Virus record (IMG/VR): IMGVR_UViG_3300049049_000146
Coordinates: 131,216-195,215 of that record
DNA length: 64,000 bases
From: a virus
Taxonomy: Duplodnaviria > Heunggongvirae > Uroviricota > Caudoviricetes
Strand: one strand, 5' to 3'
Below, piece after piece: positions 42,581 through 57,405 of this stretch (its first letter is position 1; every line of letters begins with the position of its first letter). The translations under genes were made by a program, and so were the position numbers. The notes below the pieces were generated by a model, which was given only the letters and a program-made list of their open reading frames with translations, was not told where the DNA came from and ran no database searches.

Positions 42581-42661
42581 TAGGGACGGAGGGACTCGAA
42601 CCCTCAAAGGTGCGGGGTTTAAATCCGCTGGCTGTGCCTTTCGCCGTTAACCCACGTCCCC
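42581..42661 (-). tRNA. tRNA-Leu(TAA), atypical: short variable loop, enlarged D-loop
   Basis: GGGGACG/CGTCCCT acceptor, A73, loop TTTAAAC, T-arm GAGGG-TTCGAGT-CCCTC. Confidence 0.75.
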
Positions 42662-48762: not shown

Positions 48763-49332
48763 TTAGAAAGAGTCGTCGTCGTTTTGATCGTACGGACAAT
48801 GACGACCTGAATTTCTCGGCTCTCCGTCGCGAATCTGCGGACAGTGCTTCCAGAAGCATTCACCATCACGTCCAGCGTGACAGCGTGCTTCTACCGAGTC
48901 TTTCTTCACATGCGGGATCTTGCACTCGTTAAAAGACCTCAACCGCTGAATGGGCGCGGTTACAGGCGATTCACATGAGCGAAGCAATTCCTGGAGCGAC
49001 TGAAGGATCGTTTTGGAGACCGCACCATCTGCTGCTCGGATTACCCGACGCAGTTGCTCCGCGTACATGAATGCGTCGTCGCCACGAATGAATACGCCAG
49101 GCCAGTCGTCTCCGAAGGACATCACGCCGGTCTCGGGGCGGTTAGAAACGAATCCCTCAGGGGCTTCGCACTTCATGCCGCCGCAGCGACTACAGACGTC
49201 ACCGTATCCGGTGCCGTAGCCCGAGAATCCCGACCCCTGACATTCGATACAGGGATACATGTTCTCGTCGCAGAAATCACAGCCGACGAAGCGCTCAACG
49301 CCGTGATCCGGGCATTTCTTCTCGTCGCTCAT
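48763..49332 (-). CDS. hypothetical Cys-rich protein
   Basis: CxxC pairs; FGDDWPGVFIRGD.A motif. Confidence 0.6.
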   Translation of the reverse strand: MSDEKKCPDHGVERFVGCDFCDENMYPCIECQGSGFSGYGTGYGDVCSRCGGMKCEAPEGFVSNRPETGVMSFGDDWPGVFIRGDDAFMYAEQLRRVIRAADGAVSKTILQSLQELLRSCESPVTAPIQRLRSFNECKIPHVKKDSVEARCHAGRDGECFWKHCPQIRDGEPRNSGRHCPYDQNDDDSF

Positions 49333-49392: not shown

Positions 49393-49620
49393 TTAGTCGT
49401 CGTTCCGAAGAAGGCGGTCCGCCATCTCATCGGATATCTGAAAAGGATCAGAAGGAGCTTCGGGTTCCGAATTCCAATCGGGGCCTAACAGACTTTCCAT
49501 TCGACGGTAGAAGTCGCGCCGCGACTTATAGGCATGGTACCTAGTCAGGGCGGCGCGACAGAGCCATCCAAGAAGGAACGAAAGAACCAGCGCGAGACAC
49601 GCTACTGCGTTGCTACTCAC
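49393..49620 (-). CDS. small single-TM protein coupled to the TROVE gene
   Basis: N-terminal TM; GTGA overlap. Confidence 0.55.
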   Translation of the reverse strand: MSSNAVACLALVLSFLLGWLCRAALTRYHAYKSRRDFYRRMESLLGPDWNSEPEAPSDPFQISDEMADRLLRNDD

Positions 49621-51311
49621 TCAGCAGTCGCCTCTTCCTCCGCGGCCACCTTCATGACCGGAGGAGCAGAGAACTCGATCTTCTCGATCTCTTCGACCCA
49701 GAACTTCGCGTCCTTCTGCTTGACGAAATTCTCGATTACCGGCCACACGGCGTCGCTGAATCCGCCGATGTTCAGAATCGAGCCAGCCTGGTCGGCTGCC
49801 TGCGTAGTGGAGTTCGGGCTGATGTCGATGTTGATCAGCTTGGCGTTCGGGTTGCGGGAGCGGATCTGCTGCCAGAGCGCCTCCTTACCCGTCGTCAGCT
49901 GACGCTGACCGAAACCATAGCCCGTGTAGTACGAGCGATCTGCCCACGACTCGTTGTCCGAGATGAACAGAACGACGTCTGCCTTGTTGCCCGACTTCAC
50001 GATGTGGTCGAGAGCGAGCGACAGGTTCGTTCCACCGCCACCGAACTTACGAAGCTTGTTCGCGTTCGTCATGACGGAGTCACGCGGCTCCGGACGGTAA
50101 TTCGTGTGAAGCTGGGTATCCACAGGAATTACGTGAGCGTGACGGCTCGTACGGAGAATCGACGCCGCCACGAGGGCCGCGACATCCACGTACGTCATCT
50201 TCGAGGTCGCCGTACCACGGTTACCCGTGACCGGAGAACCCATCGAACCGGAGACGTCCGGGAAGACCCAAACCTCTCCATCGAGTGCCGGCACATTCTT
50301 CGTCGCGATTTCCATCGCGTCGTGGAGCGCGTCGATCAGCGGACGCGGAATATCCGCGCTGTCCTTCGTCATGGTGTACGCCATGAACAGCTGGTACGGG
50401 AACGCCTTGGCGCGGGCGATCTCCTCGGCGTTGCTGAGCTTCGCCGCCAGCTTCTTCACAACCTCCTTATCCTTCAGCACGCCGTGGCGCGCAAAGGTAT
50501 TGAGGTTCATCCTGACGAAGTGCCAGCCGCCATTCAGAGCGATCTCAGTCCACTGCGCAGTTCCGAGGTCCAGAGCCGTGAGCATCTGGAACGGCACCTT
50601 CGGAACAGGAGCGTTCTTCGGATCCTTCTTGAATGCCTCGAACTCGCGAACGAGGGGCGGCAGATTCTCGTTGGTCTCCCAACCCTTCTTCTCCAGAAGG
50701 TAATCGTAGAGCGCCGACTTCTGCTTATCCGAGCCGCTCTTCGGGTGCGCCAGCTTCATGAGGTCAACGAGCGAGGGGCTCTGACCCACGGAGCTACGGA
50801 AGATCGCGTGAGCGTTGTGCGACTCGAACCAGCTGGAGACGAGATTCTTGCCCGAGGTACCGAGGGACTTACGCCCCATCTGACCCGAGCGCACGATCTG
50901 GACGAAGTTCTTCACCATCTTCGCGTTGTCACACGCGATCGGGAAGACCGCCTGGAGCGTACGACGAGCGACCTCGTCGCCTGCACCCGCGCGAGCGAAA
51001 AGCATCGCGCAGAGCATGGCCGGCGTATCCTTCATGAAGGCGCTCTGACGAGCGTAGACCGCAAGCTTTCCGAGGAAAGCCGAGTCCACCTTCTGAGCGT
51101 GCTCCATGACCTGCTTCAGCTGGTCTTCAGCCGAGGTGTAGAACGTATTCGAGAACGTGCCGGTGCACGCCAGCTGCGCGAGCGCAGCCTTGCTCTCGAA
51201 CTTGAACGCTACACCACCCGCAGCGTTGCGAGTGACAGCGCCGCTCGCATCCACAGCCGCACGCGGCTTCTTCCCACGACCCGCTGAACCGAACAGATTC
51301 TTGTTTGCCAT
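49617..51311 (-). CDS. rsr: Ro60/Rsr (TROVE + vWA) RNA-binding protein
   Basis: N.AGG.AF, LAQLACTG.F..TFY, KLAVYAR, KDTP, RSGQMGRKSLG, FVRMNLNTFARHG, FPYQL, PDVSGSM, VL.ISDNESW; AGGAGG RBS at true start MANKNLF. Confidence 0.93.
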   Translation of the reverse strand: MANKNLFGSAGRGKKPRAAVDASGAVTRNAAGGVAFKFESKAALAQLACTGTFSNTFYTSAEDQLKQVMEHAQKVDSAFLGKLAVYARQSAFMKDTPAMLCAMLFARAGAGDEVARRTLQAVFPIACDNAKMVKNFVQIVRSGQMGRKSLGTSGKNLVSSWFESHNAHAIFRSSVGQSPSLVDLMKLAHPKSGSDKQKSALYDYLLEKKGWETNENLPPLVREFEAFKKDPKNAPVPKVPFQMLTALDLGTAQWTEIALNGGWHFVRMNLNTFARHGVLKDKEVVKKLAAKLSNAEEIARAKAFPYQLFMAYTMTKDSADIPRPLIDALHDAMEIATKNVPALDGEVWVFPDVSGSMGSPVTGNRGTATSKMTYVDVAALVAASILRTSRHAHVIPVDTQLHTNYRPEPRDSVMTNANKLRKFGGGGTNLSLALDHIVKSGNKADVVLFISDNESWADRSYYTGYGFGQRQLTTGKEALWQQIRSRNPNAKLINIDISPNSTTQAADQAGSILNIGGFSDAVWPVIENFVKQKDAKFWVEEIEKIEFSAPPVMKVAAEEEATAE

Positions 51312-51350
51312 AACGAACCTCCTGACAGAGACATTCAGGTAAGAGAATTT

Positions 51351-51451
51351 GAAGGGCACGCCCCTAGTGGGATTCGAACCCACACCACTCGTACTAAGCT
51401 CTCTTGTTAGAGAACGCGCTTCCCTAGCGACCCGGGGCCTCCGTGCCATTC
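51351..51451 (-). ncRNA. anticodon-less tRNA-like RNA with extended acceptor helix (Y-RNA candidate)
   Basis: GAATGGCAC..GCCCC/GGGGC-GTGCCCTTC; D-like CGCT-AGGGA-AGCG; GTTCTCT-AACA-AGAGAGC; T-arm GTGGG-TTCGAAT-CCCAC. Confidence 0.65.
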
Positions 51452-51482
51452 GGTGCATCCGCAACCTGCGAGAGCGACCCAC

Positions 51483-51579
51483 ACCCCTACTTGAATTCGT
51501 TCGGGTAGCAGGTGTACTGAGTGCCTTTTACGGTGATCGGCTCCGTTTTTCCGATGTTCTGCCCTTGAACTATAGGGGC
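51483..51579 (-). ncRNA. degenerate tRNA-like element
   Basis: GCCCCTA/TAGGGGT, TA, D-arm GTTC-AAGGGCA-GAAC, ATCGG/CCGAT stem with 10-nt loop; no recognisable T-arm. Confidence 0.4.
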
Positions 51580-51588
51580 TGAGAAAGC

Positions 51589-51653
51589 CTGGCGACAGAA
51601 AATGATGTGAGGGGTATCGGTTGCAGTGATGTACTCACATCGGCATTCGCCAG
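51589..51653 (-). ncRNA. minimal Y RNA (YrlB-like)
   Basis: CTGGCGA/TCGCCAG and GATGTGAG/CTCACATC stems; GGCGAATG matches the recalled Rsr-binding GNCGAAN0-1G motif; internal loop resembles that of the YrlA candidate. Confidence 0.75.
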
Positions 51654-51662
51654 AGAAAAAGT

Positions 51663-51798
51663 GCGGCAACAGAAGGTGATGAGTTTAGTTTTACGCGCTC
51701 TACCAGGCTGAGCTATCCCCTGATAAAGCCAGGGGAGCAGGATTTGAACCTGCGACCTCGTCCTCCCAATGGATGTAAACCCATCGAGCATTTGCCGC
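51663..51798 (-). ncRNA. yrlA: YrlA-type Y RNA (circularly permuted tRNA mimic)
   Basis: Terminal stems GCGGCAA/TTGCCGC and GATGGGTTTA/TAAACTCATC enclose T-arm (GCAGG-TTCAAAT-CCTGC), loop-closed acceptor (TCCCCTG-GCTTTAT-CAGGGGA) and D-arm (GCTC-AGCCTGGTA-GAGC), in T-AS-D order. Confidence 0.88.
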
Positions 51799-51804
51799 GA
51801 AGCC

Positions 51805-51821
51805 TACTATCGTCGGACTTT
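51805..51821 (-). promoter_or_regulatory. class A promoter-like motif, copy 8
   Basis: AAAGTCCGACGATAGTA, 6 nt before the YrlA 5' stem. Confidence 0.8.
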
Positions 51822-51908
51822 GCAGTCGACGTGCCACCAAGAAACGCAGGCGTTTCGTGGAAGGCGGGGAGTGTAGCCTATCTTCTTGGATAGGCAAGCG
51901 GATAAACA

Positions 51909-52212: not shown

Positions 52213-52281
52213 TTTGGGGCGCGGGATTCGAACCCGCATTTGCGTGCATGCAGCGCCGTCCTACCGTTGAACGAGCCCCGA
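52213..52281 (-). pseudogene. degenerate tRNA-like element (possible Cys GCA)
   Basis: Good D-arm GTTC/GGAC and T-arm GCGGG-TTCGAAT-CCCGC; anticodon arm only 3 bp around CTGCATGCA; acceptor mismatch. Confidence 0.5.
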
Positions 52282-57289: not shown

Positions 57290-57405
57290 GGCCGACTCCT
57301 TGGATTCGAACCAAGCCCATCTTCCGGTTCGTAACAAACGGTCCTAAGTTCTAGGCAGCCAGCATGGCTGGCTCTTCGGAAGTGCTCACCTGGAGCCGAG
57401 TCGGC
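57290..57405 (-). ncRNA. 116-nt multi-hairpin tRNA-like RNA
   Basis: 8-bp GCCGACTC/GAGTCGGC, D-like GCTC-CAGGT-GAGC, T-arm CTTGG-TTCGAAT-CCAAG, several short hairpins between them, no 7-nt U33 anticodon loop. Confidence 0.7.

What the first reader, a model, noticed from the sequence alone, without database searches (positions are those of the whole stretch)
51351..51451. Anticodon-less tRNA-shaped RNA with an extended, bulged acceptor helix directly before rsr
Unlike YrlA, the arms are in normal tRNA order: D-like arm, 7-bp stem capped by a 4-nt AACA loop, variable region, perfect GTGGG-TTCGAAT-CCCAC T-arm. The acceptor continues through a 4-nt bulge into a 9-bp helix (GAATGGCAC/GTGCCCTTC), so there is no free aminoacylatable end. 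Its 5' side reads ACCGAATG, one base off the Rsr-binding GNCGAANG motif. It may be a Y RNA class that attaches the Ro-binding helix at the acceptor rather than the anticodon position, or an elbow decoy.
Basis: partly seen in the sequence, partly recalled or inferred. Interest (0 to 1): 0.72.

Follow-up and report, generated by a model that had tools for sequence, protein, structure and literature searches.

The report
Non-decoding tRNA-derived RNA before phage rsr
Between its Y RNA genes and its Ro60 (rsr) gene, a 424-kb phage carries a strongly conserved stretch made of two half-decayed copies of a tRNA gene that cannot read codons; it is most likely a tRNA-shaped processing signal or mimic, and the evidence does not show a new kind of Ro-binding Y RNA.

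Summary
The cloverleaf is real, on the minus strand at 51438-51359. It has a D-like arm, a 7-bp stem with an AACA tetraloop, a perfect T arm and a leader/trailer helix at 51451-51443 / 51359-51351. That helix is 8 bp plus a U.C mismatch, not 9 bp. The acceptor has only 5 Watson-Crick pairs.

The element is the 3' copy (B) of a tandem pair of tRNA-derived repeats; copy A is 51579-51483. A keeps a canonical 5' half and B keeps a canonical 3' half. A's 5' strand pairs 7/7 with B's 3' strand, and this long-range, 221-nt tRNA-like fold is preferred in silico (P 0.98 against 0.0004).

The 246-nt block has 4 differences from a sister phage, against 11.6% divergence at rsr fourfold sites, so it is not a neutral pseudogene. 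A phage with 91%-identical Rsr lacks the block, and no other homologue turned up.

The genome holds at least 11 canonical Y RNAs interleaved with tRNAs. The element shares only their ACCGAAUG half-site.

Best reading: a lineage-specific, non-decoding tRNA-derived RNA, handled like a tRNA, inside the promoter-YrlA-Y-block-rsr unit. Rsr binding is unproven. A Ro helix at the acceptor position is already known from Yrn1. The scan has noted anticodon-less tRNA-shaped RNAs beside Ro60 genes in other genomes.

The parts
51815..51822 (-). Core (CAAAGUCC) of the phage-specific promoter motif heading the unit
   Evidence: CAAAGTCC-N5-GAT(A/G)(C/G)TA occurs 28 times on the minus strand of the genome and once on the plus strand. 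This copy lies directly 5' of YrlA, and there is no other copy before rsr.
51663..51798 (-). YrlA-type Y RNA (context)
   Evidence: Rfam RF02553 gives 50.4 bits, E 1.5e-9, below the gathering score of 69. Stem 1 is GCGGCAA/UUGCCGC and the T, AS and D arms are present.
51589..51653 (-). Minimal Y RNA (context)
   Evidence: CUGGCGAAUGCC...UUUUCUGUCGCCAG. Stem 1 covaries with L008: U-A becomes C-G.
51483..51579 (-). Copy A of the tRNA-derived repeat. Canonical 5' half: GCCCCUA, UA, D arm GUUC-AAGGGCA-GAAC. Anticodon-like arm with a 10-nt loop; decayed T region; 3' strand UAGGGGU.
   Evidence: Direct repeat D1 shared with copy B. The 5' half is shared with viral tRNA-Arg and tRNA-Thr genes. Coordinates.
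51443..51454 (-). Leader: Y-type half-site ACCGAAUGG (51454-51446) and the 5' strand of the outer helix, GAAUGGCAC (51451-51443)
   Evidence: The same 8-mer ACCGAAUG opens a canonical Y RNA of this genome at 198869-198972.
51359..51438 (-). Copy B, the finding's cloverleaf: GCCCCGG, D-like arm 51429-51417, 7-bp/AACA hairpin 51415-51398, T arm 51383-51367, UAGGGGC plus G at 51366-51359
   Evidence: ARAGORN tRNA-???. Rfam tRNA 19.2 bits. MFE of the isolated RNA.
51351..51359 (-). Trailer GUGCCCUUC, the 3' strand of the outer helix (8 bp plus a U.C mismatch)
   Evidence: Inverted repeat I2. The same trailer also complements copy A's D-arm region 9/10 (I1).
51359..51579 (-). Alternative composite tRNA-like RNA of 221 nt: A's 5' half and B's 3' half form a perfect 7-bp acceptor around an insertion of about 150 nt
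   Evidence: MFE and ensemble of the 246-nt and 291-nt RNAs: P(A5':B3') 0.98; the same holds in L008. With the insert removed in silico, ARAGORN calls a tRNA-???.
51321..51339 (-). Mini Y-type hairpin CCUGA-AUG-ucu-CUG-UCAGG running into the AGGAGG Shine-Dalgarno of rsr (context)
   Evidence: Two such hairpins in the genome against 0.43 expected per shuffled genome. Both halves are invariant in L008, L009 and L010 while the loop varies.
49617..51311 (-). rsr (Ro60 orthologue, 564 aa)
   Evidence: Pfam vWA_Ro60 7.7e-14 and TROVE. Thousands of Ro60 homologues.

Best explanation
The element is the downstream half of a 246-nt, lineage-specific, selectively maintained block (51585-51340) built from two tandem, reciprocally decayed copies of a class I, tRNA-Arg/Thr-like gene. 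The block cannot decode: neither copy has a 7-nt anticodon loop. It does keep one full set of the tRNA parts that processing enzymes read, namely acceptor, D-loop GG and T loop.

It is transcribed from the phage promoter at 51822 as part of one unit: YrlA, minimal Y RNA, block, rsr, small ORF, terminator. I infer that it is folded and cut like a tRNA, by RNase P at a 5' G1 and by 3' trimming after the discriminator at 51359. That would separate the Y RNA part of the transcript from the rsr mRNA and release a stable tRNA mimic. Real tRNAs occupy the same kind of position next to Y RNAs elsewhere in this phage and in its relatives.

The more probable working fold is the 221-nt composite (A 5' half plus B 3' half).

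Shown: anatomy, tandem origin, transcription-unit layout, sequence constraint, in-silico fold preference. Inferred: processing, stability, any binding partner.
For: (1) Tandem origin. Repeat D1: CGAAUCCCACUAGGGGCGUG against CGAAUUCAAGUAGGGGUGUG, 123 nt apart.
(2) Complementary decay. A keeps GCCCCUA-UA and a canonical D arm with A14, R15, GG and A21; viral tRNA-Arg/Thr genes share this 5' half. B keeps a T arm and 3' strand identical to viral tRNAs. A's T region and B's positions 6-9 and D loop are non-canonical.
(3) A5':B3' pairs 7/7 Watson-Crick. The composite fold is -84.8 kcal/mol against -77.3 for the local fold plus outer helix; P is 0.98 against 0.0004. The result is the same in L008 and in the 291-nt context.
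(4) Constraint. There are 4 differences in 246 nt between the window and L008, against 34/293 at rsr fourfold sites (binomial 3e-9). Copy A's 5' half has 0/44 (P 0.004). Real tRNAs show 6/234 and YrlA 13/139. The rsr differences start at nt 54.
(5) One unit. The promoter motif occurs only at 51822. No terminator lies before rsr; the next strong one is at 49388-49351, downstream of rsr.
(6) Y RNAs abut tRNAs with spacers of 0-11 nt throughout the tRNA island. A's G1 lies 9 nt after the minimal Y RNA. Relatives have real tRNAs in the same arrays: L097 has YrlA, tRNA-Met, tRNA-Ser, Y, rsr; L095 and L096 have tRNA-Met.
(7) No ORF explanation. The single 1-nt indel breaks the only ORF spanning it.
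Against: - There is no covariation. Only two near-identical lineages carry the block; of the 4 changes, 2 keep predicted pairs (A-U to G.U, C-G to U.G), 1 lies in a loop and 1 breaks a pair of the AACA hairpin.
- The A5':B3' match follows from common descent of the two copies and need not be selected.
- Nearest-neighbour energies ignore co-transcriptional folding, which would favour local structures.
- L010 (Rsr 91%) lacks the whole block, so it is dispensable for Rsr and the Y RNAs.
- Constraint on the whole insertion of about 150 nt is more than a mere cutting signal needs.
- Recent recombination between the two lineages could mimic constraint; rsr divergence is itself patchy.
- Expression and processing are untested.
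Confidence: 0.45

Rival explanations
1. First reader's reading. Copy B with its leader/trailer helix is a Y RNA variant, Yrn1-like in layout. It binds the phage Rsr through the 5' strand ACCGAAUGG and presents a tRNA-shaped effector domain in natural arm order.
For: - The 8-mer ACCGAAUG is identical to the 5' motif of a canonical Y RNA of the same genome at 198869-198972. Background CGAAUG occurs about once per 2.4 kb in the island.
- It lies on the same strand and in the same unit as rsr.
- The GA of CGA pairs with UC of the trailer, as in canonical Y RNAs.
- Chen et al. note that Ro60 contacts mainly the 5' strand, and that Yrn1 has the Ro helix at the acceptor position (PMC4201824).
- The block is under constraint.
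Against: - It lacks stem 1, the YCUGUCG 3' strand, the C after AUG and the UACAU box. All four are present in 11 of 11 Y RNAs of this genome and in relatives.
- There is no Rfam Y RNA hit at E up to 10.
- There is no similar element in 95 rsr loci or 5 phage records.
- It is absent from L010, which keeps YrlA, the minimal Y RNA and rsr.
- The helix has a predicted occupancy of 0.0004 in context, and its stability is ordinary among the leader/trailer pairs of this genome's tRNAs.
Confidence: 0.2
2. The block is a cis-acting leader of rsr. It would be a structured 5' region with two mutually exclusive folds (local and long-range) that, together with the mini Y-type hairpin on the Shine-Dalgarno, tunes rsr translation or mRNA stability. 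No stable RNA would be released.
For: - Three competing pairings exist for the same strands: B5':B3', A5':B3', and the trailer with either the leader or A's D arm.
- The whole 246 nt is constrained, including spacers.
- It is contiguous with the mini-Y hairpin and Shine-Dalgarno, which is conserved also in L010.
Against: - L010 expresses the same rsr leader from AAUUCUC onward without the block.
- No pairing between the block and the Shine-Dalgarno or start region was found.
- Canonical tRNA features (T loop, GG, U8-A9) are not needed for such a switch.
Confidence: 0.15
3. The two copies are decaying tRNA pseudogenes with no function, left in a tRNA island by duplication.
For: - Neither copy is a usable tRNA.
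- The block is lineage-specific and absent from L010.
- One substitution breaks a pair in the AACA hairpin.
- The phage has other aberrant tRNA-like calls.
Against: - 4 differences in 246 nt against 11.6% at rsr fourfold sites and 9% in the adjacent YrlA.
- The decay is complementary, not random.
Confidence: 0.1

Closest known systems
YrlA (Rfam RF02553; Chen et al. 2014, PMC4201824)
   Same: A non-decoding RNA with tRNA-type T and D arms, encoded within 4 kb of rsr on the same strand, with a GNCGAAN0-1G-like motif near its 5' side. M. smegmatis YrlA is cut by RNase P and receives CCA.
   Different: YrlA has permuted arm order (T, closed acceptor hairpin, D) and its 5' and 3' ends form the Ro-binding stem. 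Here the arms are in tRNA order, stem 1 and its YCUGUCG strand are missing, and RF02553 does not hit the element.
Deinococcus radiodurans Yrn1 (Chen et al. 2013/2014; PMC4201824, Fig. 2E as described in the text)
   Same: Cloverleaf-like drawing with the Ro-binding helix at the acceptor position, a T arm and an 'anticodon arm' with a too-short loop.
   Different: Yrn1's Ro helix is complete (both strands, protected by Rsr) and Yrn1 lacks a full D arm. No Yrn1 sequence was at hand, so no alignment was made.
b7a-tRNA, band-7-associated tRNA (Burroughs and Aravind 2016, as summarised in bioRxiv 10.1101/312249)
   Same: A predicted ncRNA that closely resembles a real tRNA in normal order, linked to RNA-repair genes and occasionally encoded next to Rsr.
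   Different: The original paper was not available and no b7a-tRNA sequence was compared. No band-7 or RtcB gene lies next to this element.
Stable 'species 1' and 'species 2' RNAs of the phage T4 tRNA cluster (from my own knowledge, not checked here)
   Same: Non-decoding, tRNA-processing-dependent small RNAs encoded among phage tRNA genes, of unknown function.
   Different: No link to Ro60 or Y RNAs, no sequence relation tested, different phage group.
tRNA-like processing signals such as mascRNA at the MALAT1 3' end, and tRNAs co-transcribed with mRNAs (tufB operon) (from my own knowledge)
   Same: They work the same way: a tRNA-shaped fold recruits RNase P and 3' processing to cut a longer transcript.
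   Different: Eukaryotic or cellular examples; no homology; processing here is only inferred.
Canonical tRNA (Rfam RF00005), type Arg/Thr
   Same: Ancestry: the T arm is identical to phage tRNAs, and A's 5' half is shared with viral tRNA-Arg/Thr genes.
   Different: No 7-nt anticodon loop in either copy. 19.2 bits against a gathering score of 29. Defective acceptor in B and no T arm in A.

Membership tests
tRNA (RF00005) | Score at or above Rfam's gathering threshold (29 bits) | tested here: not met
   19.2 bits, E 1.9, at 51438-51359; no match at the gathering threshold.
tRNA (RF00005) | 5-bp anticodon stem with a 7-nt loop carrying U33 and an anticodon | tested here: not met
   Copy B has a 7-bp stem with the 4-nt loop AACA. 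Copy A has a 5-bp stem with a 10-nt loop.
tRNA (RF00005) | T arm with a GTTCGAATC-type loop and a D loop with GG | tested here: met
   GUGGG-UUCGAAU-CCCAC. The D-like loop of B is AGGGA; A's D loop is AAGGGCA.
tRNA (RF00005) | 7-bp acceptor stem followed by U8 and A9 | tested here: inconclusive
   B alone has 5 Watson-Crick pairs, one G.U and one G.A, then GU. A5':B3' has 7/7 Watson-Crick pairs, then UA.
YrlA (RF02553) | Match to the covariance model | tested here: not met
   No RF02553 or RF02565 match over 51340-51590 at E up to 10, whereas the neighbouring YrlA scores 50.4 bits.
YrlA (RF02553) | GNCGAAN0-1G motif near the 5' end | tested here: inconclusive
   ACCGAAUG is one base off the published motif but identical to a canonical paralogue in this genome.
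YrlA (RF02553) | 5' and 3' ends paired into the terminal (Ro-binding) stem | tested here: not met
   GCAC 5' of CGA has no complement in the trailer (AAAUUC). Only GA/UC and the distal helix pair.
YrlA (RF02553) | Permuted order: T arm, closed acceptor hairpin, D arm | tested here: not met
   Arms are in tRNA order.
YrlA (RF02553) | Within 4 kb of rsr and on the same strand | tested here: met
   39 nt upstream of the rsr ATG, same strand.
This phage's own Y RNA family (11 copies) | stem 1-(C/U)GAAUGC-stem 2-UACAU ... YCUGUCG-stem 1' | tested here: not met
   Only CGAAUG, followed by G, is present. UACAU, CUGUCG and the stem 1 3' strand are absent.
Yrn1-type Y RNA | Binding and protection of the 5'-strand motif by Rsr | not testable with these tools
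   Needs EMSA, footprinting or RIP.
b7a-tRNA | Near-canonical tRNA next to a band-7 protein and RtcB, sometimes Rsr | not tested
   No reference sequence or model was available. Known here only from bioRxiv 10.1101/312249.

The most novel reading that the evidence does not exclude
The block would be a new composite Rsr ligand: a 221-nt tRNA-shaped RNA whose enlarged variable region carries a Y-type half-site (ACCGAAUGG). It would switch between a long-range and a local acceptor pairing. Together with the mini Y-type hairpin on the rsr Shine-Dalgarno, it would form an autoregulatory circuit in which Rsr senses tRNA-like folding and sets its own synthesis.
Probability: 0.12. Interest if true: 0.75.

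Novelty: new variant of a known kind. Interest (0 to 1): 0.4.

Why it matters
Ro60/Y RNA particles are poorly understood in bacteria and almost unstudied in phages. This locus shows a phage that packs Y RNAs and tRNAs head to tail, which suggests that tRNA-processing enzymes make the Y RNA ends. At the junction with rsr, in place of a real tRNA, the phage keeps a conserved, non-decoding tRNA relic.

If the relic is processed and stable, it joins the growing list of tRNA-shaped phage RNAs that probably act on tRNA-recognising enzymes or defence nucleases. It would also offer a compact substrate of 250 nt with two alternative acceptors, suited to testing how RNase P chooses sites. If it is only a cutting signal, it is an ordinary device in an unusual place.

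For the claim as given, a new Y RNA class, the value lies mainly in the negative result and in the pointer to Yrn1 as prior art.

Tried and rejected
- A blastn 'distant' search of the phage collection with 51300-51900 gave no match.
- IMG/VR rsr relatives at 42-48% identity have their Y RNAs downstream of rsr and no such element.
- A metagenome scan with an Rsr alignment gave 80 loci, mostly at 46-50% identity, none carrying the block.
- blastn-short and nhmmer with the 251-nt block against 124 loci and the genome found only T-arm matches.
- Covariance model R1 of copy B plus its helix gave a best foreign hit of 22.7 bits, an ordinary tRNA.
- I considered an intron-containing or split tRNA and rejected it. 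The insert of about 150 nt lies in the variable region, is too short for a group I intron, and the anticodon-like loop has 10 nt.
- I considered an attP-type tRNA fragment and rejected it. The phage is a terminally redundant jumbo phage, copy A's 5' half would be unexplained, and no integrase was noticed nearby.
- I considered a protein-coding explanation and rejected it because of the frame-breaking indel.
- A scan for 'composite' tRNA frames in other rsr loci returned L028, L044 and L076. These proved to be artefacts of three tandem YrlA paralogues sharing one acceptor sequence.
- The ARAGORN 'tRNA-Arg' in L094 lies inside a YrlA and is a false call.
- The other two GCACCGAAUG 10-mers in the genome are not Y RNAs.
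- A possible pairing of ACCGA with UCGGU in rsr codons 7-8 was noted, but that sequence encodes the conserved N-terminus, so I gave it no weight.
- The MAFFT/RNAalifold consensus of the minimal Y RNAs recovered only stem 1, so no Y-family covariance model was built.
- The Burroughs and Aravind 2016 paper could not be read.

Full report
Setting. The window is bases 131216-195215 of a 423,825-bp virus record with direct terminal repeats. ARAGORN finds 38 tRNA-type genes in it, 35 of them on the minus strand between 179.8 and 209.8 kb. The finding lies at the downstream end of this island. It sits directly 5' of a 564-aa ORF (51311-49617, minus strand) that matches Pfam vWA_Ro60 and TROVE and has thousands of Ro60/Rsr homologues.

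The observation. On the minus strand ARAGORN reports a 'tRNA-???' at 51438-51359 with a four-base loop, aaca. Rfam's tRNA model gives 19.2 bits, below its gathering score of 29. Reading searches gives this order: ACCGAAUGG at 51454-51446; GAAUGGCAC at 51451-51443; a GGAG bulge; GCCCCGG; GU; CGCU-AGGGA-AGCG; C; GUUCUCU-AACA-AGAGAGC; 12 nt; GUGGG-UUCGAAU-CCCAC; UAGGGGC; then GUGCCCUUC at 51359-51351. Folded alone, the 126-nt RNA adopts exactly this cloverleaf plus outer helix.

The outer helix has 8 pairs and a U.C mismatch. The acceptor has 5 Watson-Crick pairs plus G.U and G.A. Positions 8-9 and the 5-nt D loop are non-canonical. The fold energy is ordinary (z -0.15). The leader/trailer duplex (-8.3 kcal/mol) is matched or exceeded by three of the other 37 tRNA flanks in this genome. 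None of the 38 genes encodes CCA, so the missing CCA is not informative.

Surroundings. A phage-specific promoter motif, CAAAGTCC-N5-GAT(A/G)(C/G)TA, occurs 28 times on the minus strand and once on the plus strand. One copy sits at 51822, immediately before a YrlA-type RNA at 51798-51663 (RF02553, 50.4 bits, E 1.5e-9). A 65-nt minimal Y RNA follows at 51653-51589. No further promoter motif and no terminator-like hairpin precede rsr. The next strong terminator is at 49388-49351, after a small ORF behind rsr. The element therefore lies inside one unit: promoter, YrlA, minimal Y RNA, about 250 nt, rsr.

Y RNAs of this phage. A pattern scan, Rfam and folding show at least 11 Y RNAs on the minus strand of the tRNA island, seven of YrlA size and four minimal. 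All have a closing stem 1 ending in (C/U)GA, then AUGC, stem 2, UACAU, and on the 3' side YCUGUCG plus the stem 1 complement. Relatives share this signature, and stem 1 covaries. These Y RNAs abut tRNAs with spacers of 0-11 nt on either side. Phages with Rsr at 57-61% identity have real tRNAs inside the Y RNA array upstream of rsr: L097 has YrlA, tRNA-Met, tRNA-Ser, Y RNA, rsr; L095 and L096 have tRNA-Met. This close packing suggests, by inference only, that tRNA-processing enzymes generate the Y RNA ends.

Is the element a Y RNA? It shares the hexamer CGAAUG. Its 8-mer ACCGAAUG is identical to that of a canonical paralogue, so being 'one base off' the published motif is not a problem. Everything else is missing: the partner strand of stem 1, the C after AUG, UACAU, and CUGUCG. 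No Rfam Y RNA model touches it at E up to 10. A tRNA-order ncRNA occasionally found next to Rsr, b7a-tRNA, has also been predicted (bioRxiv 10.1101/312249).

A tandem pair. Repeat analysis shows that the element's T-loop, 3' acceptor strand and following GUG recur 123 nt upstream at 16 of 20 positions. That upstream copy A (51579-51483) starts 9 nt after the minimal Y RNA with a canonical tRNA 5' half: GCCCCUA, UA, GUUC-AAGGGCA-GAAC. Many viral tRNA-Arg and tRNA-Thr genes share this 5' half. A stem with a 10-nt loop containing ACG follows. A's T region has decayed. Copy B, the finding, is the reverse case: a perfect T arm and 3' strand, identical to intact viral tRNAs, joined to a non-canonical 5' half.

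A's 5' strand pairs 7/7 with B's 3' strand. In the 246-nt and 291-nt RNAs the minimum-energy structure and 98% of the ensemble use this long-range acceptor, with A's D arm and B's T arm around a branched insertion of about 150 nt. The local cloverleaf with its outer helix is 7.5 kcal/mol worse and has probability 0.0004. The sister phage gives the same result. With the insert removed in silico, ARAGORN calls the outer shell a tRNA with an abnormal loop. The trailer also complements A's D-arm region 9/10, so the outer helix is not its only possible partner.

Constraint and distribution. Contigs encoding a 97%-identical Rsr (L008, L009) carry the whole block with 3 substitutions and 1 single-base indel in 246 nt. 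By comparison, rsr fourfold-degenerate sites differ at 34 of 293, the adjacent YrlA at 13 of 139, and three real tRNAs at 6 of 234. The rsr differences begin at nt 54, so the block is not simply part of a long identical tract. The binomial probability of 4 or fewer changes at the fourfold rate is 3e-9. For the 101-nt element alone it is 4e-4, and for A's 5' half it is 0.004.

The changes give no covariation: two keep predicted pairs through wobble, one is in a loop and one breaks a pair of the AACA hairpin. A phage with 91%-identical Rsr (L010) keeps YrlA and the minimal Y RNA. In place of the block it has an HNH endonuclease gene and 116 unrelated bases. Homology resumes exactly after the element's trailer, at AAUUCUC. 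No other homologue was found by blastn or nhmmer in 124 loci, or by a covariance model of the element in 95 rsr loci and five whole phage records.

Interpretation. The block is tRNA-derived, cannot decode, is maintained by selection in its lineage, and is dispensable in a sister lineage. The complementary retention of A's 5' half and B's 3' half, the constraint on A's 5' half, and A's position 9 nt after a Y RNA (where real tRNAs sit elsewhere) together favour a single composite tRNA-shaped RNA over the isolated cloverleaf. I put this reading at about 0.45, with a tRNA-like cut on either side. An Rsr-binding Y RNA variant is at 0.2, a purely cis-acting rsr leader at 0.15 and a neutral relic at 0.1. 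Processing, stability and any partner are inferences.

Earlier notes of this scan report anticodon-less or composite tRNA-shaped RNAs beside Ro60 genes in other genomes. I treated them as leads. My own scan for composite frames in other rsr loci found only artefacts of tandem YrlA triplets.

Verdict. The structure is real but incompletely described. The 'new Y RNA class' reading is not supported and its architecture has a precedent. What remains is a lineage-specific, conserved, non-decoding tRNA derivative in a phage Ro60/Y RNA operon, which I class as a new variant of a known kind and of moderate interest.

Noticed in passing
window 51321-51339 (minus strand): A mini hairpin, CCUGA-AUG-ucu-CUG-UCAGG, carries both halves of the phage's Y RNA signature and runs into the AGGAGG Shine-Dalgarno of rsr. 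The genome has 2 such hairpins against 0.43 expected per shuffled genome. The halves are invariant in L008, L009 and L010 while the loop varies. It may be an Rsr operator for autoregulation.
   Followed up: partly
G000 196857-203174 (L099 1642-7959) and window 51589-51798: At least 11 Y RNAs (seven of YrlA size, four minimal) are interleaved with tRNAs in the tRNA island, with spacers of 0-11 nt. This suggests that tRNA-processing enzymes make the Y RNA ends.
   Followed up: partly
28 sites on the genome's minus strand, e.g. window 51822, 47242, 34821, 20961, 5899: A phage-specific promoter-like motif, CAAAGTCC-N5-GAT(A/G)(C/G)TA, is strongly strand-biased (28 minus, 1 plus).
   Followed up: partly
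window 52213-52281 (minus strand): An aberrant 'tRNA-Met' is called by ARAGORN only; Rfam gives no tRNA hit at E up to 10. It has a 5-bp acceptor GGGGC/GCCCC, a shortened anticodon region and CAUC/GAUG leader-trailer pairing. ARAGORN does not call it in L008.
   Followed up: partly
window 57290-57405 (minus strand): A 116-nt tRNA-shaped RNA has an 8-bp acceptor, D and T arms, and a closed three-hairpin domain in place of the anticodon arm (z -2.44).
   Followed up: partly
window 42581-42661 (minus strand): An Rfam tRNA hit (42.7 bits) that ARAGORN does not call, with an unusual D and anticodon region.
   Followed up: no
L010 2440-2960: An HNH_3 endonuclease gene plus 116 nt replaces the whole tRNA-derived block in the phage with 91%-identical Rsr. 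The replacement runs from the end of the minimal Y RNA to the start of the rsr leader. It looks like homing-endonuclease traffic in a tRNA/Y RNA array.
   Followed up: partly
L012 2434-2502 and L094 about 1935-2005: A tRNA-like RNA lies between Y RNAs. Its CUCAUAA anticodon loop is conserved and its anticodon stem covaries (AUAGG/CCUAU against AAGGG/CCCUU), but a 6-bp hairpin with a CAG triloop stands in place of the T arm.
   Followed up: partly
L003 4870-4998 (identical in L004): A 129-nt tRNA-order RNA (Rfam tRNA 43.8 bits, z -2.70) has a 61-nt insertion in place of the anticodon loop. It ends 4 nt before the first of several Y RNAs downstream of rsr.
   Followed up: partly
L028 4722-4997, L044 2166-2453, L076 1846-2116: rsr loci recovered from metagenomes contain three tandem YrlA paralogues that share one acceptor-stem sequence, which mimics a 'split tRNA' signal.
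   Followed up: partly
window 50760-50883 (rsr nt 429-552): Divergence between the window and L008 within rsr is patchy: 23 of 75 differences fall in about 125 nt, which hints at mosaic recombination. The neighbouring 189-aa ORF (48763-49332) differs at 38 of 70 fourfold sites.
   Followed up: no
L100 2214-2288, L101 7529-7459, L102 3799-3874: Viral class I tRNAs with acceptor GCCCC(U/C)(A/G), the same T arm as the element, and a CUUAAA(A/C) anticodon loop (anticodon UAA) without a long variable arm.
   Followed up: no
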